A stretch of DNA of 64,000 nucleotides from an uncultured Candidatus Binatia bacterium (GCA_965215605.1 OZ244070.1:2528001-2592000), one strand, 5' to 3'; counted from the stretch's first letter, positions 6,934-63,430 are shown. Notes: a model not told the origin generated them from the sequence alone. Numbers and translations: made by a program.

Positions 6934-7697
6934 CCCTGTCCTGGCGGTACGCGCTGGCGGTGTGGCGCCGCAATGCCGCGATGTACCGCCGCACCTGGAG
7001 TTGGAACATCCTGCCGAACTTCTTCGAGCCGGTGCTCTACCTCGTGTCCCTCGGCGTGGGCCTCGGCGCCTACATCACCACCATGGGCGGCACCTCCTAC
7101 ATCCAGTTCCTGGCGCCCGGGCTCGTGTGCGTCGCGGCCATGAACGGCGCGAGCTTCGAGGTCACCTACAACATCTTCGTGCGCATGAACATCGAGAAGG
7201 CTTACGACGCCATGCTGACCACGCCGATCCAGCCCGTGGACGTGGTGGCCGGCGAGCTGCTGTGGTCCATGACGCGTTCGTGCGTCTACGGCCTGTGCTT
7301 CGCCCTCGTGGTGGCGGCGGCCGGGCTGGCGCCGTTGCCCCAGGCCCTCTGGGTGCTGCCGGTGATACCCCTGACGGGCCTTCTCTTCTCCGCCATCGGG
7401 CTGGCCTTCACCCTGCGCATCGCCGCCATCGAACTCTACAGCTTCTACTTCACCCTGTTCCTCACGCCCCTGTTCCTCTTCTCGTCGGTATTCTTCCCCC
7501 TGGAGGAACGCCTGTCGCCGTCCTGGCTCTGGATCGCCGAGTGCCTGCCGCTGCTCCACCCCGTGCGGCTCGCCCGCGCCGCGTTCTTCGGCCCGGCCTC
7601 GCCCGCGCTGCTATGGGACGTGGCCTATATCCTGGGCCTCTCCACCATCCTCGTGGCGTATGCCGCGGGCCTCATGCGGCGCAAGCTGACCCTGTGA
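6930..7697 (+). CDS. ABC-2 exporter permease (NodJ-like)
   Basis: VWRRN, EPVLYL, YIQFLAPG, FSSVFFP; GTGA overlap with the ATPase gene. Confidence 0.9.
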   Translation: MTLSWRYALAVWRRNAAMYRRTWSWNILPNFFEPVLYLVSLGVGLGAYITTMGGTSYIQFLAPGLVCVAAMNGASFEVTYNIFVRMNIEKAYDAMLTTPIQPVDVVAGELLWSMTRSCVYGLCFALVVAAAGLAPLPQALWVLPVIPLTGLLFSAIGLAFTLRIAAIELYSFYFTLFLTPLFLFSSVFFPLEERLSPSWLWIAECLPLLHPVRLARAAFFGPASPALLWDVAYILGLSTILVAYAAGLMRRKLTL

Positions 7698-7761
7698 CCC
7701 CCCGCCCCGAGACGAGGGAAGTAACGGCGGTCGAATCCGGAACCGGCCCGCCGGCGGTTCA

Positions 7762-7787
7762 ATGCCCGGGTCAAGTCCGGGATGACG
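7762..7787 (-). repeat. CGTC-type REP-like palindrome
   Basis: atgcccgggtcaagtccgggatgacg; its reverse complement begins CGTCAT and forms a stem-loop. Lies between convergent genes. Confidence 0.55.
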
Positions 7788-7832
7788 GGGCGGGGACTCG
7801 TGACGGGAAAAGGGAAGGAGCGGAAGGTTCTC

Positions 7833-8900
7833 TCAGGCGCCGCCCGTGCCTCGATACAGGGGAGATTCCTTGTAGCGCCCGATGAAGAAACGCGTGAGGA
7901 CGCCGATGGCGGCGGTGGCGGGCACGGACAGCAGCAGTCCGACGAAGCCGAACAGGGCGCCGCCGGCGAACAGGCCGAAGATCAGCCACAGGGGATGGAC
8001 GGCGATGCGGCTGCCCATGACCCGGGGCGTCAGCACGTAGTCGGCCAGCAACTGCCCCACGAGAAAAATCGCCAGGACCAGGGCGATCCGGATCCATTCA
8101 GGCCAGAACTGGAGACAGGCGACCCCGACGGACGCCACCAGCCCGAAGATCGTGCCGACGTAAGGGATGAAGGACAGGGCGCCGGTGGCGAGTCCGATGG
8201 TCAGGCCGTAGTCGAGGCCCGCCAGCGAGAGGGCGACGCCGTAGAAGGCCGCCAGCGCGGCGCAGATGATGACGGAGCCGTGGAGGAACCCCTTGAGCAC
8301 CACGTCGATGTCGCGCATGATTCCGCGCACGGTGCCGGCGTGGTCCCGGGGCAGCCAGTCGTCCACGGCGGCGACGATGCCGGGCCACTGCCGCAGCAGG
8401 TAGAAGGTAGTGAGGGGGGTGATGGTGAGGAGGGTGGCGATGTTGACGACCGCGGCGCCGCCGCTGGCCAGGCCCTGGAACAACCCCAGTCCCAGCTTGG
8501 TCAACCGCTGCAGGTTCCCCCCCATGGTCTGGTGCAGGCCCTCGGGTTGGCCGGCGCCGATGGCGTTCAGCGCCCGGTCGAGCAGCGGTCCGACCGCCTG
8601 GACAAGGCGGGAGACCAGTGCCGGCAGCCGCTGGATCAGGTCCGCGGCCTGCTCGGCCACCGGCGGGATGAGCAGCAACAGCACCAGCAGCCCGGCGCCG
8701 AAGAAGCCGGCGCCGATGAGCACGGTGGCCGTGGTCCGCGAGCAACCGCGTTGTTCCAGCCGGGTGGCAGCCGGGTCCAGGGAGTAGGCGAGGGCGATGC
8801 CCAGGACGAAGGGGAGCAGAACGGCGCTCAGGAGCCACACCAGCAGCAGCGCCGCCGCCAGCACCAGGAGCCAGAACCATGCCTGTGTGCGCGCGTTCAT
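7833..8900 (-). CDS. AI-2E (PerM) family transporter
   Basis: LLPFVLGIALAYSLDP, SFIPYVG, LTPRVMG, VHPLW, GGALFGFVGLLLSVP. Confidence 0.9.
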   Translation of the reverse strand: MNARTQAWFWLLVLAAALLLVWLLSAVLLPFVLGIALAYSLDPAATRLEQRGCSRTTATVLIGAGFFGAGLLVLLLLIPPVAEQAADLIQRLPALVSRLVQAVGPLLDRALNAIGAGQPEGLHQTMGGNLQRLTKLGLGLFQGLASGGAAVVNIATLLTITPLTTFYLLRQWPGIVAAVDDWLPRDHAGTVRGIMRDIDVVLKGFLHGSVIICAALAAFYGVALSLAGLDYGLTIGLATGALSFIPYVGTIFGLVASVGVACLQFWPEWIRIALVLAIFLVGQLLADYVLTPRVMGSRIAVHPLWLIFGLFAGGALFGFVGLLLSVPATAAIGVLTRFFIGRYKESPLYRGTGGA

Positions 8901-8935
8901 GAACCAGCGTCGTGTCCGGCAGACTCCGTGAGAGT

Positions 8936-9469
8936 TTACCGGATCCCGAGCCCCTTGGCGCCGCAGAACCGCACCACCTCGCGTTCCAGCGCCTCGACGT
9001 TGTCGCAGTTGACGATCACGGACGAATCACGGTGATCGAGCGCCCCGCCGGCGAGCCGGTCCGACCAGCCGCCGGACCCCTGCAGGACGTAGATGGGGCG
9101 CCCGTGAATCCACGCAAAGCACAGTTCGGAGAGGGTGCCGGCGCCGCCGCCCACGGCCACGATGAAGTCGCCCGCCAGCGCCGTCAGGACGTTCCGGGCG
9201 TGGCCCAAGCCGGTAGGGATGACCACATCGCACCATTGGTTGGCCGCGGCCGCCTGGCTCCCGGGGGTGATTCCCACGGTGAGGCCGCCGGCCCGGGCGG
9301 CTCCCCTGGAGGCCGCTTCCATCACCCCGCCCCGGCCGCCGGTGATCAGGGTAATGCCGCGCCGCCCGAGCATCCCGCCGGCATCCTCGGCGAGCGCCAG
9401 GTTGTCATGGGAGGCGTCCGAGTCCCCCACCAGCGCGGCCTGGGCGAAGCGTACGGCGCCGGCATTCAC
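8936..9469 (-). CDS. LOG/TIGR00725 family Rossmann-fold nucleotide-binding protein
   Basis: ITGGRGGVMEAASRGA, TGLGHARN, GGGAGTLSE. Confidence 0.85.
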   Translation of the reverse strand: MNAGAVRFAQAALVGDSDASHDNLALAEDAGGMLGRRGITLITGGRGGVMEAASRGAARAGGLTVGITPGSQAAAANQWCDVVIPTGLGHARNVLTALAGDFIVAVGGGAGTLSELCFAWIHGRPIYVLQGSGGWSDRLAGGALDHRDSSVIVNCDNVEALEREVVRFCGAKGLGIR

Positions 9470-9487
9470 GTGTTCGTCGGGCCTCCC

Positions 9488-10954
9488 TCAGTCCAGCAGG
9501 TAGCCGAATTTTTCATGGGCCTTCCGGACCACCTCCGGGCTCGGCGCGTTGACCTTGGGATACTTGTCGAACCACTCGAAGGGACGGCAGGCGTCCACTA
9601 CCACGCGGGAGTTGGTGAGGTCCTGGACCTTGCGCTGATCCGGCGTCACGCGCGGGTCGGCGGGGGAGGTGCGCATCTTGCGCAGTATTTCGATGGAGGT
9701 CTCGGGATCGGTCCGAGTGAGCATGGCCCAGATCAGCTCCTCCAGGTTGGACACGTCGACGTCGTCGTCCACCACGATGACGAACTTGCAGCCGTACACC
9801 ACCGAGCCGCAGGATGATGCCAGAACGCCCGCCTGCCTCGCGTGGCCGGGGTAGCGCTGCTTGATGCCGATACCGTGCAGCAGGCGCGAGGCGCCGACCT
9901 CGTGGCACCACACCTGGGTGACGTCGGGAACGCCGGCGCTGGCCAGCTCGTGCTTGAGCATGGCCGAGCGCATGATGGCGCGGTAGCGCGCCATCTCGTC
10001 GGAACCGGCCCCCAGCGGCGGCACGCCGAGGATGATGGGATCGTTGCGATGGTAGATGGCGCGGATGTCCAGGGTCGGCTGCTCGCTGGCGCCGCCGGCA
10101 TAGTAGCCGGTCCACTCGCCGAACGGCCCCTCCACCGCGCGCTTGTCCGTGGTCAGGAAACCTTCCATGACGATCTCGGCGTTGGCCGGGAAGGGCAGGC
10201 CCGTAACCTTGCCCCGCACCACCTCCACCGGGGTGCCGCGCAGGCCGCCCACCACGTCGAACTCGCACACGCCGTAGGGAAACTCCGTGCCCCCCACGAA
10301 GAACGACATGGGGTCGCTGCCCACCACCAAGGCCACGGGCATGGGCTGTCCCTTGTCGAAGTACTTCTTGCGATGCATGTAGGCGTGCTTGCCGGGGACG
10401 AACAGCAGGCTCACCGATTTTTCGTCCTGCACCATGGCGCGGTAGGTGCCGACGTTGATCCAGCGCTCCTCGGGATCGATGGTCACGCAGAAGCAGCCGG
10501 TGCCGATGTAGCGGCCGCCGTCGTCCGCGTGCCACTTGGGGGTGGGGAAGCGGGTCACGTCGATGTCGTCGCCGGTGAGGACGTTCTCGAACACCGGTCC
10601 GTCGTCCACCACTACGTGGGGTAGCCGCCGCTGCACCTTGATGTAGTGGTCGAAGAAGGCTTGGCTGAGTTCCTGCTTGGTGAGGTGTTCGGGAAACCCC
10701 AGCGTCATGTTCCGGCGCTTGCCGGCGAAGGCGTTGATGAGGACCCGGAAACCCTTGGGGCAGCCGGGGACCTCGTCGAACAGCACCGCCGGCCCGTCGT
10801 CCACGCGGATGACCGCGTCGGCGGCCAGGCCGATGTCCTCTTCCCAGCTCGCGCCGGTGACGGTGCGGAGCTCGCCAAGGGCGTCGGCCCGGGCCATCCA
10901 TTCGCGGAGGTCGTGATAGGGGAGCCTGGCTTCGATGTCAGCAGTTGTGGTCAT
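9488..10954 (-). CDS. UbiD family prFMN-dependent (de)carboxylase
   Basis: DGGRYIGT, INVGTYR, EGPFGEWTGYY, VVDDDVD, WAMLTR, VVDACRP. Start MTTTAD at 10954. Confidence 0.92.
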   Translation of the reverse strand: MTTTADIEARLPYHDLREWMARADALGELRTVTGASWEEDIGLAADAVIRVDDGPAVLFDEVPGCPKGFRVLINAFAGKRRNMTLGFPEHLTKQELSQAFFDHYIKVQRRLPHVVVDDGPVFENVLTGDDIDVTRFPTPKWHADDGGRYIGTGCFCVTIDPEERWINVGTYRAMVQDEKSVSLLFVPGKHAYMHRKKYFDKGQPMPVALVVGSDPMSFFVGGTEFPYGVCEFDVVGGLRGTPVEVVRGKVTGLPFPANAEIVMEGFLTTDKRAVEGPFGEWTGYYAGGASEQPTLDIRAIYHRNDPIILGVPPLGAGSDEMARYRAIMRSAMLKHELASAGVPDVTQVWCHEVGASRLLHGIGIKQRYPGHARQAGVLASSCGSVVYGCKFVIVVDDDVDVSNLEELIWAMLTRTDPETSIEILRKMRTSPADPRVTPDQRKVQDLTNSRVVVDACRPFEWFDKYPKVNAPSPEVVRKAHEKFGYLLD

Positions 10955-10968
10955 GGGTTTGGTTCCGA

Positions 10969-11853
10969 TCAGGCGGCCATGGACTTGATGCGTTCCACCG
11001 CCTCGTCCACCAGCTCGTCGGTGGTCTCGTTGGCGCCGACGATGCCGACCCGGGACATGCCCGTGAACCAGGAGCGTTCCAGGTCGTCGATCTTCTCGAT
11101 GCGGTACACGTTGCCGTTGAAGGCCTTCGCCACCTCCTCCATGCGGTTGGTCATGCCCTCGGTCCAGCCGAAGATGACCACCGCTTCCACGTCGCGCGCC
11201 AGCTCTTCCACCTTGGGCAGCCGCTGGAGCGAGTCGATGCAGGCGGTGTTGCGGATGCGGACGTTGGCGAAGCGCTCCAGGATGCGGGTCATGATCTTCG
11301 TATAGCTCTCCATCCAGAAGGTGGTCTGGACGATGACGCCCACGGGCTCGAAACGGGTCAGGCGGATGTCGGCCACGTCCTCTTCTTTCTCGACGATGAA
11401 CACCTCCCGCTCCTTCTCCTTGGCGATGCCCATGAGGCGCGGGATGCCGTGATGGGAGCGGCTGCTGAGGATCACCAGGTGGCAGCCCTGGTCCAGCAGC
11501 TCCAGCTCGGCTTCCTCCTGCTGGACCACGAACGGACAGGTGGCGTCGGCCAGAAGCTCCAGCCCCTGCTCCTTCGCCTGCCGGCGAACCTCCGGCGGCG
11601 CGCCGCGGACGCCGTAGATGAGTTTCTCGTCCTGGATGGAGTCCATGTCGTTGGTGGAGCGGATGCCCTCTTCGTCCTCCAGGCTCCTGAAGGCGATGAA
11701 GTCGTTCTCGGGCCTCAGGGACCACACGGCGATGCCGTCGCCGTGTTTCTCCACCATCTTCTGGTGCATCGCCCCGGCGCGGTGCACGCCCACGCAGAGA
11801 CCGCTGGGCGGGATCCCCTTGGTGTTGTTGAAGTCGACCTTGACCACTTCCAT
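10969..11853 (-). CDS. Non-canonical IspH/LytB-like [4Fe-4S] protein
   Basis: GLCVGVHRA, DATCPFV, QTT and NTAC match the IspH fold. His/Glu/Ser substrate motifs are altered. GAGGAGG RBS. Confidence 0.75.
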   Translation of the reverse strand: MEVVKVDFNNTKGIPPSGLCVGVHRAGAMHQKMVEKHGDGIAVWSLRPENDFIAFRSLEDEEGIRSTNDMDSIQDEKLIYGVRGAPPEVRRQAKEQGLELLADATCPFVVQQEEAELELLDQGCHLVILSSRSHHGIPRLMGIAKEKEREVFIVEKEEDVADIRLTRFEPVGVIVQTTFWMESYTKIMTRILERFANVRIRNTACIDSLQRLPKVEELARDVEAVVIFGWTEGMTNRMEEVAKAFNGNVYRIEKIDDLERSWFTGMSRVGIVGANETTDELVDEAVERIKSMAA

Positions 11854-11983
11854 GAGAGCCTCCTCGCTAAACCGGGTTGTTGCGGAATGTTTGCAAATCG
11901 GAGGGGGTTTTTCAACGGGTCACGGGCCGCCCGTCCAGATTGAACCCCGCTCGTGCATTCGTCATCCTGCGCCGCGGGCGCCT

Positions 11984-13102
11984 CTACACGAGCTGCGAGA
12001 GCAGCGCCGGCGCCGGCGCCACGCGGATGCCGTCGGGCGTCACGTAGTCCTTCACGCCGGTGGCGGAAATCTGCCATGCCTCGGCGTCGGGGAATTTCGT
12101 CTTCAGGTACTTGAGGCTCCGGTCCGGGTTGGCGTCGGACCACTTGCACTCCACGAGCAGTGACGGGGCGCCTCGCCGCTCAACGACGAAGTCCACCTCC
12201 CGGCCGTCCTTGTCGCGAAAGTAGCGCAACTCGAGATCCAGTCCTTCGGTGTCCTGCTGGTGGTGGACCCACTTGAGCAGGTGGCAGGCGGCGAGGTTCT
12301 CGAAACGCGCGCCGTCTTCGGGCGGCAGGGTCCAGTCGAAGTGGTAGTGCTTGGACTGTTTCTTGACGGTGCGCAGGCGCGGCGAACCGAACGGAAGCAG
12401 GCGGAAGAGGGCGTACAGCCGTTCCAGAGCGTCGAGCCAAGCGTTGGCGGTCTTGTGGCTGATCTGCAAGTCCTGGCGCAGAGCGTTGACGGAAAGGGGC
12501 GAGCCGACTCGCTCCGGCAGGGACAGCATCATCAACTCCAACTGCCCGAGGTCCTGGATCCGTTCGAGAGTGGCCACCTCTTCCCGCACCAGCAGAGCGC
12601 CGTATTCCCTGGACCATCGTGCGGCTTCACGGCGGCTGCCGGACAGCCAGGGTTCGGGGAAGCCGCCAAGTTCCAGCAAGTCGCGCAGGCCCTCGGGCGT
12701 ATCGATGCCCAACTCGGCCACGGAGAAGGGGTGTAGCCGCAACAGGTGATAGCGTCCCTGCAAGGAATCGCCCCCGTAGCGGTAGAAGTCCAGTTGCCCG
12801 CTCCCGGTCACGAGAATCTTCTGTCCGGCCCGGCGGCCGTCATACAGGCCTTTCAGGTAGTTGCGCCAGTTCCGGTACTTGTGGACTTCGTCGAAGATCC
12901 ATAAGTCCGACGCCGGCAACTCCCGCCGCAGGATGCGCTGCCGGTGATCGGCGATGTCCCAGTTGAGGTACGCATCGGCGGCGCCGGGCAGGCTGCGCGC
13001 CAGGGTGGTCTTGCCGACTTGGCGCGGGCCTGCCACGAACGCCATCTTGCGCTGAAGGTCCGACAGGACCTGCGCGGCAAGGTATCTGGGCGTCTCGGCC
13101 AT
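11984..13102 (-). CDS. AAA+ ATPase with DUF4143 domain
   Basis: GPRQVGKTT, IFDEVHK, VTGS, GGFPEP, FENL, REVDFV, VECKW. Confidence 0.9.
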   Translation of the reverse strand: MAETPRYLAAQVLSDLQRKMAFVAGPRQVGKTTLARSLPGAADAYLNWDIADHRQRILRRELPASDLWIFDEVHKYRNWRNYLKGLYDGRRAGQKILVTGSGQLDFYRYGGDSLQGRYHLLRLHPFSVAELGIDTPEGLRDLLELGGFPEPWLSGSRREAARWSREYGALLVREEVATLERIQDLGQLELMMLSLPERVGSPLSVNALRQDLQISHKTANAWLDALERLYALFRLLPFGSPRLRTVKKQSKHYHFDWTLPPEDGARFENLAACHLLKWVHHQQDTEGLDLELRYFRDKDGREVDFVVERRGAPSLLVECKWSDANPDRSLKYLKTKFPDAEAWQISATGVKDYVTPDGIRVAPAPALLSQLV

Positions 13103-16605: not shown

Positions 16606-17850
16606 ATGGAACGCGCCCGGCTGGACAGGCTCAACGGTATGCTGGACGAGGTGCTCCGGACCAACGAGTTCTATCGCCGCAAGCTCGATGGGTGCGTTGT
16701 GCGGCCCGTGGAGGGACCGGAACAGTTCTCGGAGCTGCCGTTCACCACCAAGCAGGAGCTGGTGGACGACCAACTCCGGCACGCGCCGTTCGGCAGTGAC
16801 CTGACCTATACCCTGGAACGGTACGTGCACGTGCACCAGACCTCGGGCACCACGGGCCGGCCCATGTACTGGCTGGATACCGAGGCGTCGTGGGACTGGT
16901 GGGGCGAATGCTGGAAGGCCGTGCTGGAGGCAGCCGGGGTGGGGCCCGGAGACCGCGTCTTCTTCGCGTTCTCCTTCGGGCCGTTCGTGGGGTTCTGGAG
17001 CGGCTGGGAAGGGGCCCGCAAGGTCGGCGCCCTGGCCGTTTCCGGGGGCGGACAGACGACGCAGCAACGGCTCAAGAGCCTTATGGAATACGAGGCCACC
17101 GCGCTGGTGTGCACCCCGACTTATGCCCTCCACATGGCGGCGGAGGCGCGGCGGGCGGGCATGGACCTGGCGCGGGACTCGGCCGTGCGGGTGACCGTCC
17201 ACGCGGGCGAGCCCGGGGCGAGCATCGCCTCGACGAAGCGCCGCATCGAGGACGCGTGGGGCGCCCGCTGTTTCGACCATACCGGGGCCACCGAGGTGGG
17301 CGCCTTCGGCTTCGGCTGCGACGCCCTGCCGGAAGGGGTCCACGTCAACGAGGACGAGTTCATCGCGGAGGTGGTGGACACGGAGAGCGGCGAGCCGCTG
17401 CCCGACGGGGGCCGGGGAGAGCTGGTGCTGACGAACCTGGGCCGGGTGGGAAGCCCCGTCATCCGGTACCGCACCGGAGATGTAGTGGAGCCCCGCCGCG
17501 GTCCCTGCGCTTGCGGGCGCGACTCCCTGGTGTTGGACGGGGGCGTGGTCGGACGCGTGGATGATATGGTGGTGGTGCGGGGAGTCAACATCTTCCCGAG
17601 CGCGGTGGAGCGCATCGTGCGGCAGTTTCCCGAAGTCGAGGAGTTCCGCGTCGACGTGCTGGAGACCGGCGGGCTGGCGGAGCTCAAGGTCACGGTGGAG
17701 CCGGGCGCGGGGGAAACGCCGGCCGGTCTCAGGGAGGGTGTGACCGAGTCCATCCGGGACAACCTCCACATCCGCCCGGTGGTGGAGGTTGCGCCGCCGG
17801 GGACCCTGCCCCGTTTCGAGTTGAAGGCGAGGAGGTTCTTTCGGAATTGA
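16606..17850 (+). CDS. Phenylacetate-CoA ligase (PaaK)-like aryl-CoA ligase
   Basis: LPFTTKQEL, TSGTTGRP, CTPTYA, AGEPG, IRYRTGD, GRVDDM. Confidence 0.88.
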   Translation: MERARLDRLNGMLDEVLRTNEFYRRKLDGCVVRPVEGPEQFSELPFTTKQELVDDQLRHAPFGSDLTYTLERYVHVHQTSGTTGRPMYWLDTEASWDWWGECWKAVLEAAGVGPGDRVFFAFSFGPFVGFWSGWEGARKVGALAVSGGGQTTQQRLKSLMEYEATALVCTPTYALHMAAEARRAGMDLARDSAVRVTVHAGEPGASIASTKRRIEDAWGARCFDHTGATEVGAFGFGCDALPEGVHVNEDEFIAEVVDTESGEPLPDGGRGELVLTNLGRVGSPVIRYRTGDVVEPRRGPCACGRDSLVLDGGVVGRVDDMVVVRGVNIFPSAVERIVRQFPEVEEFRVDVLETGGLAELKVTVEPGAGETPAGLREGVTESIRDNLHIRPVVEVAPPGTLPRFELKARRFFRN

Positions 17851-17858
17851 GCAGCGCC

Positions 17859-18353
17859 ATGTCCGACAGCGAGACCATCACCGGAAAGCGCCTGATGCGG
17901 TTGCGGGTCAACGGCGAGGTGCACGAGGTGGCCGGCCACGTCACCCACAGCCTGCTGGAGGTGCTCCGGGAGGAGATGGGCCTCACCGGCACCAAGCATG
18001 GCTGCGAGCTGGGGGAGTGCGGCACCTGCACGGTGCTGGTGGACGGCGAGCCCATTTACTCGTGCCTGATGCTGGCGGTGGAGGCCGAGGGCGCGGAGAT
18101 CACCACCGTCGAGGGACTGGCCCTCCAAGGGCGGCCGCATCCATTGCAGCGGGCGTTCTCGGACCTGGGTGCGGCCCAGTGCGGCTACTGCATCCCCGGA
18201 ATCCTGCTGGCGGCCAAGGCGCTCCTCGACAAGCGGCCAGAGCCGTCACGCGTCGATATCGAGGAGGCACTGTCGGGCAACCTGTGCCGTTGCACGGGCT
18301 ACACCAAGATCATCGAGGCGGTGGAGCAGGCCATGGGCGAGATGCGGGGTTGA
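17859..18353 (+). CDS. 2x[2Fe-2S] subunit of a xanthine-oxidase-family enzyme (HcrC/CoxS-like)
   Basis: GCELGECGTCTV, QCGYC, NLCRCTGY. Confidence 0.92.
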   Translation: MSDSETITGKRLMRLRVNGEVHEVAGHVTHSLLEVLREEMGLTGTKHGCELGECGTCTVLVDGEPIYSCLMLAVEAEGAEITTVEGLALQGRPHPLQRAFSDLGAAQCGYCIPGILLAAKALLDKRPEPSRVDIEEALSGNLCRCTGYTKIIEAVEQAMGEMRG

Positions 18354-18381
18354 CGGACAAGGGCTTGGAAACGGGATCGAC

Positions 18382-18609
18382 ATGACGCCGATAGAGTGGA
18401 TTGCGGCCGGGCAACTGGCCATCGGCGCCGGGCAACTGGCCGTCGGCGCGGTCGGGGTCATCCTGGTGTGGCAGGGTATCCGGCAGATGCGCAGGGCCGG
18501 CGACCAGCGCGAGAAGCGCGAGGATGCCCGACATTGCGAAGCGATGCGCGCGCTGGAAGCGCTCATAGAACGAACCGCGGGGAGCCGGGGCGAAGGCACG
18601 CAGGTATGA
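18382..18609 (+). CDS. Small single-TM hypothetical protein
   Basis: MTPIEWIAAGQLAIGAGQLAVGAVGVILVWQG... followed by a charged helical tail; ATGA overlap with the next gene. Confidence 0.6.
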   Translation: MTPIEWIAAGQLAIGAGQLAVGAVGVILVWQGIRQMRRAGDQREKREDARHCEAMRALEALIERTAGSRGEGTQV

Positions 18610-20975
18610 AGAAAAGCCGTTTCTCGGTCATCGGCAAGCCCTTGCCGCGCATCGACGGTCCGGCCAAGTGCGCGGGCGACACGCGTTACGCCGACGACCT
18701 CGTCATGCCGCGCATGCTGTTCTGCCGGCTGCTGCGGAGCCCGCATCCGCACGCGCTGATCCACGACGTGTCCGCGCGGCGGGCGCTGGAGCTGCCCGGG
18801 GTCCACGCGGTCATCACCGGCGAGGACGTGCCGACGAAGTTCGGCATCATGCCGTCGACCCAGGACGAGGAGGCGCTGGCGGTGGACAAGGTCCGCTATG
18901 TCGGCGACCCGGTGGCGGCGGTGGCGGCCGTCAGCGAGGACGCGGCGGAGGAGGCGCTGCGGCTCATCGACGTCGACTACGAGGTGCTCGACCCCATCCT
19001 GTCCATCGAGGGCGCCCTCGAGGCCGAAGACCACCGAATCCACACGTGGAACCGGCGCGCCAACATCCAGAAGGCCGTCTCCTTCGAGTTCGGCGAGGTG
19101 GACGCGGGCTTCGAGGAGGCGGACGAGATATTCGAGGGGACCTATTTCTTCCAGGGCAACACCCACCTGCCCATGGAGCAGTACTGCGCGCTGGCCAACT
19201 ACACGGCCGACGGCAAGCTCACGCTGTGGTCCTCGACCCAGACGCCGCACTACGTGCACCGCGCCCTGTCCCGGGTGCTGGATCTGCCCATGGGGCGCAT
19301 CCGGGTCATCGCCACGCCGGTGGGCGGCGGCTTCGGCGGCAAGAGCGACCCGTTCTCCCACGAGATCGCGGTGGCCAGGCTAGCGATGATCACCGGCCGC
19401 CCGGTGAAGATCACGCTCAACCGGGAAGAGTCGTTCTATGTCCACCGGGGACGCCACCCGGTGAAGATGTGGATGCGCACGGGGGTCAAGCGCGACGGCA
19501 CCCTCAAGGCCATGTGGTTCCGTTCCTTCCTGGACGGCGGCGGCTACAGCAGCTACGGCCTGGCCACGGTCTACTACACCGGGGCGCTGCAGACGGTGAC
19601 CTACCAACTGCCGGCCTACAAGTTCGAAGGCGTGCGGGTGTTCACCAACAAGCCGCCCTGCGGCCCCAAGCGCGGCCATGGCACACCGCAGCCGCGGTTC
19701 GCCATGGAGGTGCAGCTCGACGAGATCGCGGAGAAGCTGGGGCTGGACCCGGTGGAACTGCGGCTCAAGCAGATCGTCGAGCCCGACAGCGTGACGGTGA
19801 ACGGCCTTCGGGTCAGCACCATCGGGCTGCGGGAGTGCATCGAGAAGGTCGCCGAGCGCTCGGGCTGGAAGGAGAAGCATCGCGCGCTGCCCCGGGGACA
19901 CGGCATCGGCTTTGCCGCCAGTTCCTACATCAGCGGCGCGGGCCTGCCCATCTACTGGAACGACATGCCCCACTCGGGGGTGCAGATCCGCGCGGACCGG
20001 GGCGGCGGCGTGACCGTGTTCTGCGGCTCCACGGACATCGGCCAGGGCTCCGATTCCATCCTGGCCTTCGCGGTGGCCGAGGAGCTGGGGCTTCAGCCGG
20101 GGGACGTGCGGGTGTTCACGGCGGACACCGACCTCACGCCGGTGGACCTGGGAAGCTATTCCAGCCGGGTCACGGTGATGACCGGCAACGCCGCCATCCA
20201 GGCCTGCGGCAGTCTCAAGGAGCGTCTGTTCGAGGTGGCGGCGGAGGTCCTGGAGGTGCCCGCCGACGACCTGGAAATGGAGGAGGGCCGGGTGCGGAGC
20301 CGCAGTCTGCCGGACCGGGGCCTGGGCTTCGCCGAGTGCGTCGAGCGGGCGGAGTCCCGGTTCGGCACCCTCGGGGCCACCGGCAGCTACCGGCCGCCCA
20401 GGCATCCGGGAGACTACAAGGGCGCCGGGGTCGGGCCTACCCCGTCCTACAGCTACTCCGCCGCCGTGGTGGAGCTCCACTGCGACGGCGACACCGGCGA
20501 GATCCACATCGACAAGGTATGGATCGCCCACGACTGCGGCCGCGCCTTCAACCCGTTGTGGGTGCAGGGGCAGGTGGAGGGAAGCGTCTACATGGCCCTG
20601 GGCGAGGTGCTGATGGAGGAGCAGATCTTCCGCAAGTCGGGCGTGCACAAGATCCCGTCCATCCTCGAATACAAGAGCCCCACGACGTTGGAGACGCCGC
20701 CCATCGAGACCATCCTGGTGGAGACCGACGACCCGGAGGGTCCCTTCGGCGCCAAGGAGGCCGGCCAGGGTCCGTTGCTGCCGGTGATACCGGCCGTGTC
20801 CAACGCGGTCTACGACGCGCTGGGCGTGCGCATCCACGAGATACCTGTGACCCCGGACAAGATCCTGCGGGCGCTGGACCAGCGGCTCAAGGAGCCCTCG
20901 GTGCCGGAGTTCGAGTTTCCCACGCCCATTCGCTGGGCCCCGGGCCAGGGGGTCGAGGTGCCGCAGAAGAGTTGA
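18606..20975 (+). CDS. Molybdopterin-binding large subunit, 4-hydroxybenzoyl-CoA reductase alpha (HcrA)-like
   Basis: SPHPHA, GGGFGGK, GPKRGHG, DIGQG, GSYSSR, GQVEGS, GAKEAGQG. Confidence 0.88.
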   Translation: MKKSRFSVIGKPLPRIDGPAKCAGDTRYADDLVMPRMLFCRLLRSPHPHALIHDVSARRALELPGVHAVITGEDVPTKFGIMPSTQDEEALAVDKVRYVGDPVAAVAAVSEDAAEEALRLIDVDYEVLDPILSIEGALEAEDHRIHTWNRRANIQKAVSFEFGEVDAGFEEADEIFEGTYFFQGNTHLPMEQYCALANYTADGKLTLWSSTQTPHYVHRALSRVLDLPMGRIRVIATPVGGGFGGKSDPFSHEIAVARLAMITGRPVKITLNREESFYVHRGRHPVKMWMRTGVKRDGTLKAMWFRSFLDGGGYSSYGLATVYYTGALQTVTYQLPAYKFEGVRVFTNKPPCGPKRGHGTPQPRFAMEVQLDEIAEKLGLDPVELRLKQIVEPDSVTVNGLRVSTIGLRECIEKVAERSGWKEKHRALPRGHGIGFAASSYISGAGLPIYWNDMPHSGVQIRADRGGGVTVFCGSTDIGQGSDSILAFAVAEELGLQPGDVRVFTADTDLTPVDLGSYSSRVTVMTGNAAIQACGSLKERLFEVAAEVLEVPADDLEMEEGRVRSRSLPDRGLGFAECVERAESRFGTLGATGSYRPPRHPGDYKGAGVGPTPSYSYSAAVVELHCDGDTGEIHIDKVWIAHDCGRAFNPLWVQGQVEGSVYMALGEVLMEEQIFRKSGVHKIPSILEYKSPTTLETPPIETILVETDDPEGPFGAKEAGQGPLLPVIPAVSNAVYDALGVRIHEIPVTPDKILRALDQRLKEPSVPEFEFPTPIRWAPGQGVEVPQKS

Positions 20976-20978
20976 CCG

Positions 20979-22040
20979 ATGCTGCGACTTCCCGATTTCA
21001 CCTATATCCGCCCGCGCACCCTGGCGGAGGCGTCGAGCGCGCTTGAAGAGCTGGGCGCCGAGGCCATGGCGGTGGCCGGCGGCACCGACGTCTATCCCAA
21101 GATGAAGCGGGGGCAGTTCACGCCGCGATACTTGGTGTCGCTGGGCCATGTGGAAGAGCACCGGGGCATACGCCGGGAGGAAGGGCGCGGTCTGTGGGTC
21201 GGCGCCGGCGAGACCCTGAGCGTCGTGGCCGGCCACGAGGTCGTGCGCCGCGAATTTCCCGCGCTGGCCGCCGCCGCCGGCCTGGTCTCGACGCTGCAGC
21301 TCCGGAACGCCGGCACCATCGGCGGCAACCTGTTCGTGGACACCCGCTGCAACTACTACGACCAGTCGTTCTTCTGGCGCCAAGCCGTGGGTTTCTGTCT
21401 CAAGAAGGACGGGGACATCTGCCTGGTGGCGCCCAAGAGCCGCGTCTGCCTCGCCATCTGCTCTTCGGACACCGCGCCGGTGCTGAGCAGCCTGGGCGCC
21501 GAGGCCGTCCTGGTCAGCGGCCAGGGGAGCCGGCAGGTGCCGCTGGACACCCTCTACCGCGACGACGGCATTGACTACCTCGCCAAACGGCCGGAGGAGT
21601 TGTTGCAGGGCGTGTGGATCCCGGAGGCGTCTTTCGGCTGGCGCAACGTCTACCTCAAGCTGCGCCGCCGGGGCTCCTTCGACTTCCCGGTGCTGGGGGT
21701 GGCCGCGGCCCTCAGGATGGCCGCCTCGGGGACGTGCGAGGGGGCGAAGGTGGTTCTGACGGCGGTGGCGTCGGCGCCCAAGGTGGTGGAAGATGCGCCC
21801 GGGGTTCTGTGCGGGAAGCCCGTGGACAGGGCCTCCATCGCCGAGGCCGCGGAGCTGGCCATGCGCGTGTCCCATCCGCTGGACAACGCGGACATGGATT
21901 ACTGGTATCGCAAGCGCATGACCCGGGTGTACGTGACGCGGGCGCTGCGGCAACTGACCGCCTCCGGCGAGGCGGCTGACGGCCCGGAGGCGGCCCCCGC
22001 CCAAGCGGGCCGGAAAGGAAGCCATGGCGGCATCCGCTGA
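20979..22040 (+). CDS. FAD subunit with [4Fe-4S] loop (HcrB-like)
   Basis: AGGTD, RNAGTIGGN, and the extra Cys loop RCNYY...FCLKK.GDIC...C. Confidence 0.9.
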   Translation: MLRLPDFTYIRPRTLAEASSALEELGAEAMAVAGGTDVYPKMKRGQFTPRYLVSLGHVEEHRGIRREEGRGLWVGAGETLSVVAGHEVVRREFPALAAAAGLVSTLQLRNAGTIGGNLFVDTRCNYYDQSFFWRQAVGFCLKKDGDICLVAPKSRVCLAICSSDTAPVLSSLGAEAVLVSGQGSRQVPLDTLYRDDGIDYLAKRPEELLQGVWIPEASFGWRNVYLKLRRRGSFDFPVLGVAAALRMAASGTCEGAKVVLTAVASAPKVVEDAPGVLCGKPVDRASIAEAAELAMRVSHPLDNADMDYWYRKRMTRVYVTRALRQLTASGEAADGPEAAPAQAGRKGSHGGIR

Positions 22041-27933: not shown

Positions 27934-29484
27934 TTGGTCGTGTCCGAGTCCAAGTTCCAGATTCCCGGAGGCCAGGCCGGCCGGCAATGGCTGCGTGAGT
28001 TGAGCGCGCGGCATCGTCTTCACGAAGAGCCGCGCCGCAGGGGCGAGTCCGTGTATTTCGACACCTTCGACGGCAGGCTCGCCGCGGGGTCGCGGGCCTT
28101 GTGGGTCTCCGAGGGGACCCTGTGTCTGGAACGCCCGGACCGTCCGGGTGAGCCGATCCGGATGGCGCTCGATGGGTCTCCCGTATCCGCGGACAGCCTG
28201 CCGCCCGGCGAGCTGAGGGATGGGCTTGCGCCGCTGACCAGGAACCGGGCGCTGCTGAAGCTCTTCTCGGTTCGTTCGGAGGTTCGGAGCTGGCGCAAGT
28301 GGAATGACGACCGGAAGACCGTCGTGCGCGTCTCGTCGAGCAACGACGAGGTCTCGGACGGGGAACGGAGAGCGCGGCTGAACCCCGTTGTCGTGGTGCG
28401 GCGGGTCCGGGGCTACGGGAAGGCCTTTCGGGAAGTCTGCGACTGGTGCGCCAAACGGGCCGTGCTGGTGGACCCGGGCTCCCGCTATCGGCAGGCGCTC
28501 GAGGCCCTCGGGATCGACCCCGGGCGCGGGGCGTCCCTGGGCAGGCTGGAGATCAGCGCCGCCATGACGGCCGCGGAAGGGGTCCGGGCCATGCTGGGGG
28601 CGCAATACCGGGTGGCGCGGGGCAACGAGGAAGGCATCCGCGGTGACGCGGACACGGAGTTCCTGCACGACTTCCGGGTGGCGGTGCGGCGCGCCCGGTC
28701 GTTTCTGGGGCAGCTCCGGAACGCCTTCGCGCCGAAGCCCGCCACGGCGCTGCGGAAGAGCCTGTCATGGCTGGGCAGGTCCACCAACGCCTTGAGGGAT
28801 CTGGACGTGTACCTCGAACAGCAACCGGCCTACCGGGACATGCTCATGGAACCTCTGGCCGGAGACCTCGCGCCGCTGTTCGAATTCGCCGGGCGGCGGC
28901 GGCAGGCCGCGTTCCGGGAGTTCGTGGCGGTGATGGGTTCGGATGCCTACGGCGACACCCTGCGCCGGTGGCGGGCATGCGCCGGCGACGAAGGGGCGTT
29001 GGGCGTGGGCAGCCGTGGTTCCGAGCCGGTGCTGCGTCTGGCCGGGTCCCGGGTGGCGAGGCAGTGCCGGGCGGTCCTGGAGCAGGGCTACGGGCTCCGG
29101 GAACATGCCGGCCCCGATGACCTCCATTCCCTGCGCATCGAGTGCAAGCAGCTTCGTTACCTCATGGAGGCGGTGGCGGAGCCCATGCCCGACACCGGCG
29201 TCGTCGTGCAGCGGCTGAAGAAGCTCCAGGACGCGCTGGGGCGGATCCAGGACCTCTCCGTGCACGAGGCCCGGACGCAGGACTTCGCCCGCGCCATGTC
29301 CCGTGCCGGGAACCGGCAGGTAATGGCGGCCGTCGAGGTGTTGGTGTCGCGGATGCGCGTGGAAAGAGAGCTGGCCTGCGCCAAGGTCCCCGGGTTGTTT
29401 GAACAGTTCAGCCGGAGCCTGCGTGAGACGGAGCCGCCGTACGCGTTGCTGCTGCCCTGGCTTCCGCGAATCCAGTCCGGCTAA
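27934..29484 (+). CDS. CHAD-domain polyphosphate-binding protein with degenerate CYTH-like N-terminus
   Basis: YFDTFDGRL; EFLHDFRVAVRRARS, RDLDV, LHSLRIECKQLRY, LQDALG..QD. Confidence 0.88.
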   Translation: MVVSESKFQIPGGQAGRQWLRELSARHRLHEEPRRRGESVYFDTFDGRLAAGSRALWVSEGTLCLERPDRPGEPIRMALDGSPVSADSLPPGELRDGLAPLTRNRALLKLFSVRSEVRSWRKWNDDRKTVVRVSSSNDEVSDGERRARLNPVVVVRRVRGYGKAFREVCDWCAKRAVLVDPGSRYRQALEALGIDPGRGASLGRLEISAAMTAAEGVRAMLGAQYRVARGNEEGIRGDADTEFLHDFRVAVRRARSFLGQLRNAFAPKPATALRKSLSWLGRSTNALRDLDVYLEQQPAYRDMLMEPLAGDLAPLFEFAGRRRQAAFREFVAVMGSDAYGDTLRRWRACAGDEGALGVGSRGSEPVLRLAGSRVARQCRAVLEQGYGLREHAGPDDLHSLRIECKQLRYLMEAVAEPMPDTGVVVQRLKKLQDALGRIQDLSVHEARTQDFARAMSRAGNRQVMAAVEVLVSRMRVERELACAKVPGLFEQFSRSLRETEPPYALLLPWLPRIQSG

Positions 29485-40113: not shown

Positions 40114-40226
40114 GGCAAAGAGGCACAAGAAACTACTACAATTGCGGCACCGCTTCAATACAGAACCGGGTGCGCCGGCCGGACGTGCCGCTGTTCGTCG
40201 TAGCGCCGAACGGTCGACGGCGATCG

Positions 40227-46468: not shown

Positions 46469-46631
46469 GATACCTCCAGGTGTGGTTGACCGTTGGGGGG
46501 ATGACATCGTGGACCGGACTCGCCGGAGGATGTCCGCCGGGCCGATTGTCGATCCGAAGCTATCAGATAGCCCGGCGGCCGGCGAAACGCAAGGTGGCGG
46601 GAAGCCGGCGGCGGTGACAAACGTGTAAGGG

Positions 46632-62995: not shown

Positions 62996-63430
62996 ATGAA
63001 GATCGAAGGGAGCTATCAGTTCAACGCCCCGCGGGAGCGGGTCTGGGAGGTCCTGCAGGACCCCCAGATCATGGCCCGGTGCATGCCCGGCTGCGAGAGC
63101 ATGGAGGAAGTCAGCCCGGACCAGTACGAGGCCACGGTCAAGGTCGGCATCGCCGCGGTCAAGGGCAGCTACAAGGCCAAGGTCGCCGTCAAGGAGAAGC
63201 AGGCCCCCAGCCACTACGTGCTGAGCGGCTCGGGCTCCGGCGGCCCGGGCTTCATGCAGGGCGACCTGGTCATCGACCTGGAGGAGAACGGGGAATCCGC
63301 CACCACGCTGCGGTACAGCACCGACGCCAAGATCGGCGGCCTGATCGCGGGCGTGGGCCAGCGCATGCTGGGAGGCGTCGGCAAGATGATGGTGGACCAG
63401 TTCTTCAAGAAGATGGAGGGCTTCGTGTAG
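62996..63430 (+). CDS. coxG: CoxG (SRPBCC) family protein
   Basis: APRERVW..L.DP, CMPGC, GG.IA.VGQR. Confidence 0.85.
   Translation: MKIEGSYQFNAPRERVWEVLQDPQIMARCMPGCESMEEVSPDQYEATVKVGIAAVKGSYKAKVAVKEKQAPSHYVLSGSGSGGPGFMQGDLVIDLEENGESATTLRYSTDAKIGGLIAGVGQRMLGGVGKMMVDQFFKKMEGFV

What the first reader, a model, noticed from the sequence alone, without database searches (positions are those of the whole stretch)
7833..11853. Non-canonical IspH-like Fe-S protein in an operon with a UbiD decarboxylase and a LOG/TIGR00725 protein
Seen: four same-strand genes (IspH-like, UbiD, TIGR00725, AI-2E) with gaps of 14, 18 and 35 nt. The first keeps the three IspH cluster Cys (GLCVGV, DATCP, NTAC) and QTT. 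It has lost the HN motif, SAHG becomes GVRG, HPEV becomes HHGI (no catalytic Glu), SSNS becomes WTEGMT and GAS becomes GAN. Known: in E. coli IspH, H41/H74/H124/S225/N227/S269 bind the HMBPP diphosphate and E126 is the catalytic acid; UbiD needs prenyl-FMN, made from DMAP(P) by UbiX and then oxidatively matured. No ubiX is in the window. Inference: this is an IspH paralogue with a new activity tied to UbiD, such as prFMN supply or maturation, or reductive dehydroxylation of a non-phosphorylated substrate. It is the best candidate here for an undescribed system.
Basis: partly seen in the sequence, partly recalled or inferred. Interest (0 to 1): 0.8.

Follow-up and report, generated by a model that had tools for sequence, protein, structure and literature searches.

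The report
Remodelled IspH-like iron-sulfur enzyme in Binatia
A Binatia bacterium carries, besides its normal IspH, a strictly conserved IspH-like iron-sulfur protein with a rebuilt substrate pocket whose constant partner across relatives is a small unusual ferredoxin, not the UbiD decarboxylase that happens to sit beside it in this one genus.

Summary
Four minus-strand genes (IspH-like 10969-11853, UbiD 9488-10954, TIGR00725 8936-9469, AI-2E 7833-8900) lie 14, 18 and 35 nt apart. The IspH-like protein keeps the three cluster Cys and the QTT threonines. It has lost the HMBPP-diphosphate ligands and the catalytic Glu. The genome has a canonical ispH and a ubiX elsewhere.

The interpretation "tied to UbiD" is mostly not supported. 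The UbiD/TIGR00725 neighbours occur only in the window's genus: 23 of 23 genome loci and 1 metagenome locus. In other Binatia the gene is followed by a 94-aa 2Fe-2S-type ferredoxin with a Cys3+Asp motif, in 28 of 31 and 42 of 46 loci with downstream sequence. It is never followed by an intact UbiD. Across 123 genomes of the order, this ferredoxin occurs only where the IspH-like gene occurs: 53 have both, 6 have the IspH-like gene only, 0 have the ferredoxin only, 64 have neither. All 123 carry at least 15 UbiD genes.

In the window's genome the ferredoxin sits about 430 kb away, right after the MBL gene that flanks the pair in one sister-family genome. This suggests the IspH-like gene moved next to UbiD.

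Best reading: a new IspH/LytB subfamily, a ferredoxin-dependent Fe-S enzyme acting on a non-diphosphate substrate. The scan noted the same block before on other DNA (e1-1094293).

The parts
10969..11853 (-). IspH/LytB-fold paralogue (294 aa). It keeps the three cluster Cys (C20, C106, C205) and T177/T178. The HMBPP pocket is replaced by invariant R47, R83, H134-H135-G136, R139, E232-G233-M234 and N275.
   Evidence: PF02401 146 bits. TIGR00216 126.4 bits, below the 187.85 cut-off. hhalign residue map. Residue conservation in 120 of 120 sequences. AF2 model pLDDT 92.4 with TM 0.84-0.86 to E. coli IspH.
11859..11865 (-). Shine-Dalgarno-like GAGGAGG, 5 nt before the ATG of the IspH-like gene.
   Evidence: Read directly from the sequence. 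No sigma-70-like promoter was found in 7600-12200.
9488..10954 (-). UbiD-family decarboxylase (488 aa). It is one of 32 UbiD homologues in this genome, and its closest solved relative is PhdA.
   Evidence: TIGR00148 267.7 bits, above the 244.85 cut-off, and three UbiD Pfam domains. PDB 7pda_A scores 370 bits; passages of PMC10850782 name 7PDA as phenazine-1-carboxylate decarboxylase. 32 matches in G000; the best match in four sister-family genomes is 49% identical.
8936..9469 (-). TIGR00725 / SLOG-cluster4 protein (177 aa), related to LOG and to the Moco-carrier protein.
   Evidence: TIGR00725 122.6 bits, above the 106.9 cut-off; PF18306 136 bits. PDB 1rcu, 6y01 and 2iz5 (Moco carrier protein) at E 1e-21 to 1e-19. 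It is the only copy above the cut-off in G000.
7833..8900 (-). AI-2E family membrane transporter (355 aa), the last gene of the same-strand block.
   Evidence: PF01594 181 bits. It follows TIGR00725 in 20 of 23 same-genus loci.
11984..13102 (-). AAA_14/DUF4143 ATPase gene upstream. It is a variable insertion and not part of the block.
   Evidence: Pfam. An ortholog of at least 90% identity is present in only 2 of 23 same-genus loci (L022, L023). In G019 a 25%-identical AAA_14-like gene on the opposite strand splits the IspH-like gene from UbiD.

Best explanation
The gene at 10969-11853 encodes a functional [4Fe-4S] enzyme of the IspH/LytB fold. It belongs to a small, deeply separated, mostly Binatia-restricted subfamily. 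It keeps the cluster site with a free fourth iron and the Thr that contacts the substrate hydroxyl in IspH. The diphosphate-binding His/Ser/Asn shell and the catalytic Glu are replaced by an invariant Arg-rich pocket (R47, R83, R139, H134/H135, with E232 and N275). The inference is that it binds a small anionic substrate that is not a diphosphate, probably a carboxylate. It would then perform an IspH-like 2-electron reductive dehydroxylation, or a related Fe-S-mediated dehydration. Its redox partner is inferred to be a dedicated 94-aa Fer2-type protein with a Cys-x4-Cys-x2-Asp...Cys motif. That protein is encoded directly downstream in nearly all other Binatia and about 430 kb away in this genome (C1:2110001-2110282). 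The position next to UbiD, TIGR00725 and AI-2E arose once, in the ancestor of the window's genus, when the gene left an MBL-IspHL-Fer2 locus. There it is probably co-transcribed with UbiD. It is not a general accessory of UbiD enzymes or of prFMN supply. Shown here: fold, conserved residues, phyletic pattern and gene order. Inferred: cluster binding, substrate class, chemistry and electron donor.
For: Fold and site. AF2 gives pLDDT 92.4. Foldseek's best matches are all IspH, with TM 0.84-0.86 to E. coli IspH:HMBPP structures. hhalign against canonical IspH gives probability 100 and maps the residues.

Conservation. C20, R47, R83, C106, H134, H135, G136, R139, T177, T178, C205 and N275 are identical in 120 of 120 clade sequences (117 full-length hits plus P0121, P0123 and P0129). 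Identity is 87-97% within the genus.

Separate lineage. Eighteen non-canonical rows are split from 30 canonical IspH, including the genome's own, by a branch with SH-aLRT 99 (quick tree). Only about five full-length clusters at 50% identity exist among 1.84 billion representatives.

Ferredoxin partner, by gene order. Fer2 lies directly downstream in 28 of 31 non-genus genome loci and in 42 of 46 non-genus metagenome loci.

Ferredoxin partner, by phyletic profile over 123 genomes of the order. 53 have both genes, 6 have IspHL only (two are incomplete genomes of the genus, 76% and 93% complete), 0 have Fer2 only, and 64 have neither. In the window's genus Fer2 is retained at 85-100% identity in 26 of 28 genomes (G000 itself is the 100% row, the other 25 are 85-99%). 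The two genes lie about 430 kb apart in G000 and at similarly distant coordinates in the single-contig genomes listed.

Relocation. In G000, Fer2 directly follows the MBL ortholog (2109179-2109898, then 2110001-2110279). This is the order seen in sister-family genome G025 (MBL-IspHL-Fer2) with IspHL removed. In the tree the genus clade is nested among Fer2-linked lineages.

Fer2 motif. H34-D35-C36...C41-G42-T43-D44 and C79 are invariant in 15 of 15 aligned sequences and in all 30 aligned.

Against a UbiD tie. See the rival explanations.
Against: No biochemical data exist. The substrate is unknown, and the flanking genes beyond Fer2 differ between lineages: OCD/mu-crystallin and an RDH/QueG-like Fe-S protein in some, Mrp/FeS-assembly genes in others, and MBL in one sister-family genome (G025). 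The catalytic Glu of IspH is missing, and no replacement proton donor has been shown. Fer2 has only three invariant Cys; that Asp44 completes a 2Fe-2S site rests on a recalled precedent and was not tested. Six genomes have the IspH-like gene without a detected Fer2. Seven loci lack Fer2 downstream: L065, L070, L071 and L171-L174. Within the genus, adjacency to UbiD is kept in 23 of 23 loci. A metatranscriptome contig spans both genes, so a local functional link with UbiD is possible. Two related metagenome contigs (L135, L140) carry a 51-aa UbiD N-terminal remnant right after Fer2. Related genomes are not independent samples.
Confidence: 0.6

Rival explanations
1. Local pathway coupling. In the window's genus the IspH-like enzyme was recruited into one catabolic or detoxification route with the PhdA-like UbiD decarboxylase, and perhaps with the TIGR00725 protein and the AI-2E transporter. 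It would remove a hydroxyl group reductively from the acid that UbiD decarboxylates, or from UbiD's product.
For: The same-strand block has gaps of 14, 18 and 35 nt. It is kept in 23 of 23 same-genus genome loci and in metagenome locus L170. One RNA-library contig of 2427 nt (X22) covers 9483-11833, which is both genes. Two X21 contigs cross the junction. L135 and L140 carry a UbiD remnant after IspHL-Fer2.
Against: All of this is one evolutionary event within one genus, where synteny is expected by descent. This UbiD has no ortholog above 49% identity, and TIGR00725 none above 50%, in the four sister-family genomes searched, and there the TIGR00725 homologues are not next to UbiD. In G019 an opposite-strand gene separates the IspH-like gene from UbiD, and both stay intact. 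Each genome holds 32-71 UbiD copies, which makes chance adjacency easier. The remnant in L135/L140 matches a different UbiD paralogue best (65% against 48%). RNA-library contigs can contain DNA and do not prove a single transcript (note).
Confidence: 0.2
2. One reading: the paralogue serves UbiD cofactor supply or maturation. For example, it might make dimethylallyl monophosphate for UbiX from a monophosphate analogue of HMBPP, or help to mature prFMN.
For: It is adjacent to UbiD in the genus. The pocket has fewer phosphate ligands but keeps three invariant Arg and His, which could hold a single phosphate. Binatia have very large UbiD repertoires.
Against: High-quality genomes with 63-125 first-look UbiD candidates lack it, for example G026, G247, G248 and G296. 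No ubiX lies within any IspH-like locus examined. The genome's ubiX is more than 500 kb away. The conserved partner is a ferredoxin, not UbiX or UbiD.
Confidence: 0.05
3. It is a second HMBPP reductase isozyme, a redundant IspH, as the JGI annotation says.
For: It matches PF02401. JGI names cluster members HMBPP reductase. The three Cys and T167-equivalent are kept.
Against: It scores below every NCBIfam IspH equivalog cut-off (126 against 187.85), and NCBI names it 'hypothetical protein'. The equivalents of H41, H74, E126, S225, S226, N227 and S269 are all replaced. A canonical IspH is present in every genome that has the paralogue.
Confidence: 0.03
4. It is a non-catalytic Fe-S protein, such as a redox or iron sensor or a scaffold, that only retains the IspH fold.
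For: The catalytic Glu is lost. The neighbourhoods beyond Fer2 are heterogeneous. Some loci have Mrp/FeS-assembly genes nearby (L044, L045, L063, L160).
Against: A whole set of pocket residues is invariant, including three Arg, two His and both Thr (120 of 120). This looks like a ligand-binding active site. There is no DNA-binding or signalling domain. The strict co-occurrence with a ferredoxin fits electron supply to an enzyme.
Confidence: 0.07

Closest known systems
[quoted passage not shown]
   Same: It has the same three-domain fold (TM 0.84-0.86). The three cluster Cys and the Thr-Thr of QTT are kept. Its length is about 290 aa. It is probably ferredoxin-dependent.
   Different: Identity is 22-34%. 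The diphosphate ligands and the catalytic Glu are replaced. A 3-residue insert carries an invariant Arg. It scores below the equivalog cut-offs. It co-exists with a canonical IspH. It has a dedicated Cys3+Asp ferredoxin-like partner.
PhdA, phenazine-1-carboxylic acid decarboxylase of Mycobacterium fortuitum (UbiD family, PDB 7PDA)
   Same: It is the closest solved relative of the neighbouring UbiD (370 bits over residues 14-470). The domain layout is the same.
   Different: This concerns the neighbour, not the IspH-like protein. Substrate identity cannot be inferred at this distance. The window's UbiD is one of 32 paralogues.
Molybdenum cofactor carrier protein / LOG-type SLOG proteins (PDB 2IZ5, 1RCU; TIGR00725)
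   Same: The third gene meets the TIGR00725 cut-off and matches 1RCU, 6Y01 and 2IZ5 at E 1e-21 to 1e-19.
   Different: No ligand is known for TIGR00725 proteins. Orthologs of at least 74% identity occur only in the window's genus.
ISC-type and plant-type 2Fe-2S ferredoxins (TIGR02007 fdx_isc; PDB 1I7H)
   Same: The partner protein matches Pfam Fer2 (PF00111) and, weakly, fdx_isc (40 bits) and E. coli Fdx (E 2.6e-8).
   Different: Only three Cys are invariant, and Asp44 sits at the position of the third Cys ligand. It scores far below the fdx_isc cut-off (40 against 132). In the genomes searched it occurs only together with the IspH-like gene.

Membership tests
IspH/LytB HMBPP reductase (TIGR00216 equivalog) | Match to the LytB domain and fold | tested here: met
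   PF02401 146 bits against a cut-off of 24.5. AF2 model TM 0.84-0.86 to E. coli IspH.
IspH/LytB HMBPP reductase (TIGR00216 equivalog) | Score above the curated equivalog cut-off | tested here: not met
   TIGR00216 126.4 against 187.85, and NF002187 135 against 276. All seven IspH models are below their cut-offs.
IspH/LytB HMBPP reductase (TIGR00216 equivalog) | Three Cys ligands of the [4Fe-4S] cluster (E. coli C12, C96, C197; numbering recalled) | tested here: met
   C20, C106 and C205 align with them and are present in 120 of 120 clade members.
IspH/LytB HMBPP reductase (TIGR00216 equivalog) | Diphosphate-binding residues H41, H74, H124, S225, S226, N227, S269 (numbering recalled) | tested here: not met
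   Only the H124 equivalent (H134) is kept. H74 becomes R83. S225/S226/N227 become E232/G233/M234. S269 becomes E276. There is no His in the H41 loop.
IspH/LytB HMBPP reductase (TIGR00216 equivalog) | Catalytic proton donor E126, and T167 | tested here: not met
   By hhalign E126 becomes G136 (by MAFFT, R139). The T167 equivalent, T177, is kept.
IspH/LytB HMBPP reductase (TIGR00216 equivalog) | Conversion of HMBPP to IPP/DMAPP | not testable with these tools
   This needs an enzyme assay or complementation.
UbiD family decarboxylase (neighbour gene) | TIGR00148 cut-off and the three UbiD domains | tested here: met
   TIGR00148 267.7 against 244.85. PF20695, PF01977 and PF20696 are all above their cut-offs.
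UbiD family decarboxylase (neighbour gene) | A UbiX prenyltransferase in the genome to make prFMN | tested here: met
   TIGR00421 235.7 bits at C1:3056958-3057503, which is not linked to the block.
   An intact UbiD is adjacent in 0 of 31 and 0 of 46 non-genus loci. ubiX is in none.
   UbiD is in 123 of 123 genomes of the order and the paralogue in 59 of 123.
TIGR00725 family (third gene) | Score above the curated cut-off | tested here: met
   122.6 against 106.9.
2Fe-2S ferredoxin (partner Fer2) | Four Cys ligands in the Fer2 pattern | tested here: not met
   Three invariant Cys (36, 41, 79), with Asp44 at the place of the third ligand. Cluster binding was not tested.

The most novel reading that the evidence does not exclude
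The IspH-like protein and its Cys3+Asp ferredoxin form a two-component reductive dehydroxylase, or dehydratase, that acts on a non-phosphorylated organic acid. This would be the first IspH-fold enzyme outside isoprenoid synthesis. In the window's genus it has been rewired into an operon with a PhdA-like UbiD decarboxylase and a cofactor-carrier-like SLOG protein, giving a new decarboxylation-plus-dehydroxylation route for (hetero)aromatic or unsaturated acids in sponge-associated Binatia.
Probability: 0.2. Interest if true: 0.75.

Novelty: new variant of a known kind. Interest (0 to 1): 0.55.

Why it matters
IspH is a drug target and a textbook organometallic Fe-S enzyme, and no family member with another substrate was found in the papers searched. 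A paralogue that keeps the cluster site but has a rebuilt, invariant, Arg-rich pocket, together with a private ferredoxin, offers a defined pair of small proteins to express. With them one could ask what else this fold can reduce.

For annotation, these genes should not be named HMBPP reductase, as JGI names them. For the scan, the lesson is that the UbiD neighbour is a genus-level rearrangement. Binatia carry dozens of UbiD genes per genome, so adjacency to UbiD alone carries little weight there.

Tried and rejected
1. Complex prediction of the IspH-like protein with Fer2, both as alignments (after queue refusals), gave 'no answer' (score 0.01). This is not evidence either way.

2. The search for related loci with P0123 alone in metagenome contigs found nothing. 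The second scan, with an alignment, returned mostly Binatia-type loci. Only one relative of P0129 came back (L126, a 2.5-kb contig), with DUF423 and an unnamed ORF downstream. So the context of the most distant clade members stays unknown.

3. The neighbourhoods of the three genome loci without Fer2 (L065, L070, L071) and of L171 and L172 showed nothing consistent: M24 peptidase, NMT1-like binding proteins, MFS, GGDEF, arylmalonate-decarboxylase-like, PNPOx.

4. The sigma-70 promoter scan of 7600-12200 found none, and the terminator-like hits are at chance level.

5. I considered a recent duplication of the genome's own ispH and rejected it. Identity is 24-25%, and the own IspH sits on the far side of the SH-aLRT 99 split.

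6. RNA run X23 gave no laid contigs. Depths from contigs were not used to rank genes.

7. The search of earlier findings by place returned nothing.

8. Supplementary files of papers were not consulted (they are closed). The sequence-similarity-network supplement of PMC4746011 might list such outlier clusters.

Full report
**The observation**

The window has four genes in a row on the minus strand. They are an IspH-like gene (10969-11853, 294 aa), a UbiD gene (9488-10954, 488 aa), a TIGR00725 gene (8936-9469, 177 aa) and an AI-2E transporter gene (7833-8900, 355 aa). The gaps are 14, 18 and 35 nt.

Pfam and NCBIfam confirm the families.
- LYTB scores 146 bits, but every IspH equivalog model is below its cut-off (TIGR00216: 126.4 against 187.85).
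- UbiD is above the TIGR00148 cut-off.
- TIGR00725 is above its cut-off.
- AI-2E_transport scores 181 bits.

The IspH-like gene has a GAGGAGG box 5 nt before its ATG.

**It is a paralogue, and the genome has ubiX**

The genome (G000, 4.06 Mb, 97% complete) has a canonical ispH at C1:1543200-1544030 (317 bits). It has a ubiX at C1:3056958-3057503 (236 bits). Neither lies near the window. The two IspH-type proteins are 24-25% identical.

**The remodelled pocket**

A profile-profile alignment compared 16 clade members with 30 canonical IspH (probability 100). The E. coli numbers are recalled and were also given in the finding. The map is as follows.

| E. coli IspH | This protein |
|---|---|
| C12 / C96 / C197 | C20 / C106 / C205 |
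| T167 / T168 | T177 / T178 |
| H74 | R83 |
| H124 | H134 |
| E126 | G136 |
| S225 / S226 / N227 | E232 / G233 / M234 |
| S269 | E276 |

- A three-residue insert follows G136 and holds R139.
- The H41 loop has no His.
- MAFFT puts the gap elsewhere and aligns E126 with R139. Either way the Glu is gone.

In 120 clade sequences (117 full-length hits plus P0121, P0123 and P0129), the following residues are identical in all 120: C20, S45, R47, P48, R83-G84-A85-P86, C106, H134-H135-G136, R139-L140, Q176-T177-T178, C205, D207, S208, R211, N275 and T277. This is a conserved active site, not decay.

AlphaFold2 with a 48-row alignment gives pLDDT 92.4. Foldseek finds only IspH structures as good matches, with TM 0.84-0.86 to E. 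coli IspH with HMBPP bound.

**How big and how old the clade is**

Among 1.84 billion representatives at 50% identity, only a handful of full-length non-canonical clusters appear: P0121 (73% identity, 727 members), and the singletons P0123, P0129, P0140 and P0145.

A quick maximum-likelihood tree of 48 rows splits these 18 non-canonical rows from 30 canonical ones by a branch with SH-aLRT 99. The genome's own IspH is on the canonical side. This was a quick search without bootstrap, and P0140 is a long branch.

Record titles of near-identical loci name Candidatus Binatia, some under older Deltaproteobacteria-type labels.

The phyletic pattern:
- In the order, 59 of 123 genomes have the paralogue at E<=1e-60: family f1 27/27 (all in the window's genus), f2 4/5, f3 27/90.
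- None of 200 other genomes drawn from the phylum has it.
- The tallies include the unpublished genomes G298 and G262. Without them the count is 57 of 121.

**Gene order: two patterns**

*Genome collection.* Fifty-eight loci were examined.
- The 23 loci with 87-97% identity (the window's genus) all show IspHL-UbiD-TIGR00725, followed by AI-2E in 20 of 23.
- Of the 35 loci with 64-78% identity, 4 end inside or right after the gene.
- Of the remaining 31, 28 have a 93-95-aa Fer2 gene directly downstream, mostly 6-25 nt away. Three do not (L065, L070, L071).
- None has UbiD next to it. L053 has a 46% UbiD about 6 kb upstream.

*Metagenome collection.* An independent scan gave 80 loci, of which 53 hold a gene at least 60% identical to the window's.
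- One of them (L170, 94%) has UbiD and TIGR00725.
- Of the other 52, 6 are cut off downstream.
- Fer2 follows in 42 of the remaining 46, and not in L171-L174.
- In L173 and L174 an RDH/QueG-like Fe-S protein follows directly.

Beyond Fer2 the neighbours vary. In many f3 and metagenome loci they are an OCD/mu-crystallin gene and then a 304-aa protein with two 4Fe-4S motifs (TIGR02486 RDH subfamily, 119 bits, below its cut-off). Elsewhere they are Mrp/FeS_assembly_P genes on the other strand, cupin and AhpD-like small genes upstream, or an MBL-fold gene directly upstream in G025 of family f2 (also metagenome locus L130); in G029 it lies one gene further upstream and G027 has none.

**Phyletic profile of the ferredoxin**

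The genome's own Fer2 ortholog was searched in the same 123 genomes. It is found in 53, and every one of these also has the paralogue.

| Class | Genomes |
|---|---|
| Both genes | 53 |
| Paralogue only | 6 |
| Fer2 only | 0 |
| Neither | 64 |

The six paralogue-only genomes are G018 (76% complete), G016 (93% complete), G245, G294, G309 and G311. Relatives are not independent, but within family f3 the pattern is patchy, and the two genes still come and go together: 23 both, 4 paralogue only, 0 Fer2 only, 63 neither.

In the window's genus Fer2 is kept at 85-100% identity in 26 of 28 genomes. G000 itself is the 100% row, and the other 25 are 85-99%. The two genes are about 430 kb apart in G000. 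In the single-contig genomes the listed coordinates are similarly far apart.

**The ferredoxin is itself unusual**

All 30 aligned copies carry H-D-C-T-E-A-x-C-G-T-D-R-V and a third Cys near the C-terminus. That gives three invariant Cys, with Asp44 where Fer2 proteins normally have the third Cys. From memory, a Cys3+Asp 2Fe-2S site is known in E. coli succinate dehydrogenase SdhB. This was not checked here. The protein matches fdx_isc only weakly (40 bits against a cut-off of 132) and E. coli Fdx at E 2.6e-8.

**How the UbiD neighbourhood arose**

In G000 the Fer2 gene (C1:2110001-2110282) directly follows the ortholog of the MBL gene (2109179-2109898, 55% identity). A PrpB-like gene comes after it. 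In sister-family genome G025 the order is MBL-IspHL-Fer2. The simplest reading is that the IspH-like gene left this locus in the ancestor of the genus and landed upstream of a UbiD gene. The tree agrees, since the genus clade is nested among Fer2-linked lineages.

The partner genes of the block are also genus-specific.
- The window's UbiD has no match above 49% identity in four f2 genomes.
- TIGR00725 orthologs of at least 74% identity occur only in the genus (26 of 26). The best matches elsewhere are at most 50% identical, and in f2 they are not next to UbiD.
- In G019 an AAA_14-like gene on the other strand sits between the IspH-like gene and UbiD, and both remain intact.

**UbiD is everywhere in these genomes**

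G000 has 32 UbiD homologues, and the four f2 genomes searched have 22, 49, 66 and 71. All 123 genomes of the order have at least 15 matches to PF01977. That call includes the unpublished genomes G259, G262, G279 and G298.

Complete genomes with large repertoires lack the paralogue, for example G026, G247, G248 and G296. No ubiX lies in any locus examined. So a general role in prFMN supply or UbiD maturation is unlikely.

**Evidence that keeps a local link alive**

In an RNA library (X22) one contig of 2427 nt, about 90% identical, covers 9483-11833, which is exactly the UbiD and IspH-like genes. In X21 two contigs cross the junction. Such contigs may contain DNA and do not prove one transcript.

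Two related metagenome contigs (L135, L140) have a 51-codon UbiD N-terminal remnant right after Fer2. It resembles another UbiD paralogue of G000 more than the window's (65% against 48%).

The closest solved relative of the window's UbiD is 7PDA (370 bits). [quoted passage not shown]

**Literature**

- Full-text searches for IspH-like, IspH paralog or homolog, LytB-like and IspH2 gave 57 papers, of which 30 were listed. By their titles and abstracts these concern canonical or plant isoforms and the M. tuberculosis LytB1/LytB2 pair.
- Searches for IspH family, superfamily or type gave 4 papers.
- In PMC4746011 (passages read) the IspH similarity network is described by taxon and by fusions, with no mention of pocket-less members in the passages seen.
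- No paper in the library holds UbiD together with Binatia or Binatota.
- Supplements were not available.

**Earlier scan note**

Note e1-1094293 described the same block in another genome as a remodelled IspH-like reductase with UbiD and a carrier-like protein. I confirm the remodelling. My own census disagrees with the 'conserved operon' emphasis: the operon is genus-level, and the conserved partner is the ferredoxin.

**Verdict**

The protein is a new, conserved variant of the IspH fold with unknown substrate. Its UbiD neighbour is a recent rearrangement. Its true partner by gene order and by co-occurrence is a Cys3+Asp ferredoxin-like protein.

Noticed in passing
whole genome G000 and the order: The UbiD family is massively expanded. 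G000 has 32 homologues, and the four sister-family genomes searched have 22-71. No paper in the library pairs UbiD with Binatia or Binatota.
   Followed up: partly
G000:C1:2110001-2110282 (locus L090 1501-1782) and the Fer2 genes of L043-L077: The ferredoxin-like partner has only three invariant Cys, with an invariant Asp at the third ligand position (HDCTEAxCGTDRV ... C). In the genomes searched it occurs only where the IspH-like gene occurs.
   Followed up: yes
L068:10360-11274 and equivalents in L046, L050, L054, L055, L061, L077, L173, L174: A 304-aa protein with two 4Fe-4S motifs is related to reductive dehalogenase/QueG (TIGR02486, 119 bits, below its cut-off of 160). It often closes an IspHL-Fer2-OCD gene row, and in L173/L174 it directly follows the IspH-like gene.
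   Followed up: partly
whole genome G000; window 45350-46681(-): The OCD/mu-crystallin family also has many copies: 29 tblastn segments in G000. One copy is in the window, beside an FGE-sulfatase-like gene.
   Followed up: no
window 16606-22040(+): An AMP-binding ligase gene is followed by the three subunits of a molybdenum hydroxylase (Fer2_2, MoCoBD, FAD_binding_5). This lies about 7 kb from the Moco-carrier-like TIGR00725 gene. A CoxG-like gene is at 62996-63430.
   Followed up: no
L135:2749-2913 and L140:6221-6385: A 51-codon remnant of a UbiD N-terminus ends in a stop between Fer2 and a bicupin gene. It is closest to the UbiD paralogue at G000:C1:3579517 (65%).
   Followed up: yes
window 11984-13102(-); L097 8669-9745(+): AAA_14/DUF4143 ATPase genes behave like variable insertions around the block. 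One lies upstream of the IspH-like gene here, with close orthologs at the same place only in L022 and L023. A 25%-identical one lies between the IspH-like gene and UbiD in G019.
   Followed up: partly
L179, L182, L183, L185 (metagenome contigs): There is a second non-canonical IspH subgroup of the P0140 type: R at the H74 position, Y-H-G..R, and R-Y-L in place of S-S-N. In L179 and L183 it lies next to a BamA-like Omp85/POTRA gene, with no Fer2 or UbiD nearby.
   Followed up: partly
L046, L057, L074, L075, L077 (five contigs of one MAG): One MAG labelled Candidatus Udaeobacter holds five contigs with Binatia-type IspH-like genes (G252 shows five matches). This looks like a mixed bin or strain mixture rather than five paralogues.
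   Followed up: no
L050, L055, L069 (OCD genes after Fer2): The OCD gene matches in two adjoining tblastn pieces. This suggests frameshifts, which could be real or could be assembly errors.
   Followed up: no
window 38002-40527(-), 27934-29484(+): A polyphosphate kinase gene and a CHAD-domain gene lie in an ordinary chromosomal neighbourhood with glnA, amtB-glnK and pckG.
   Followed up: no
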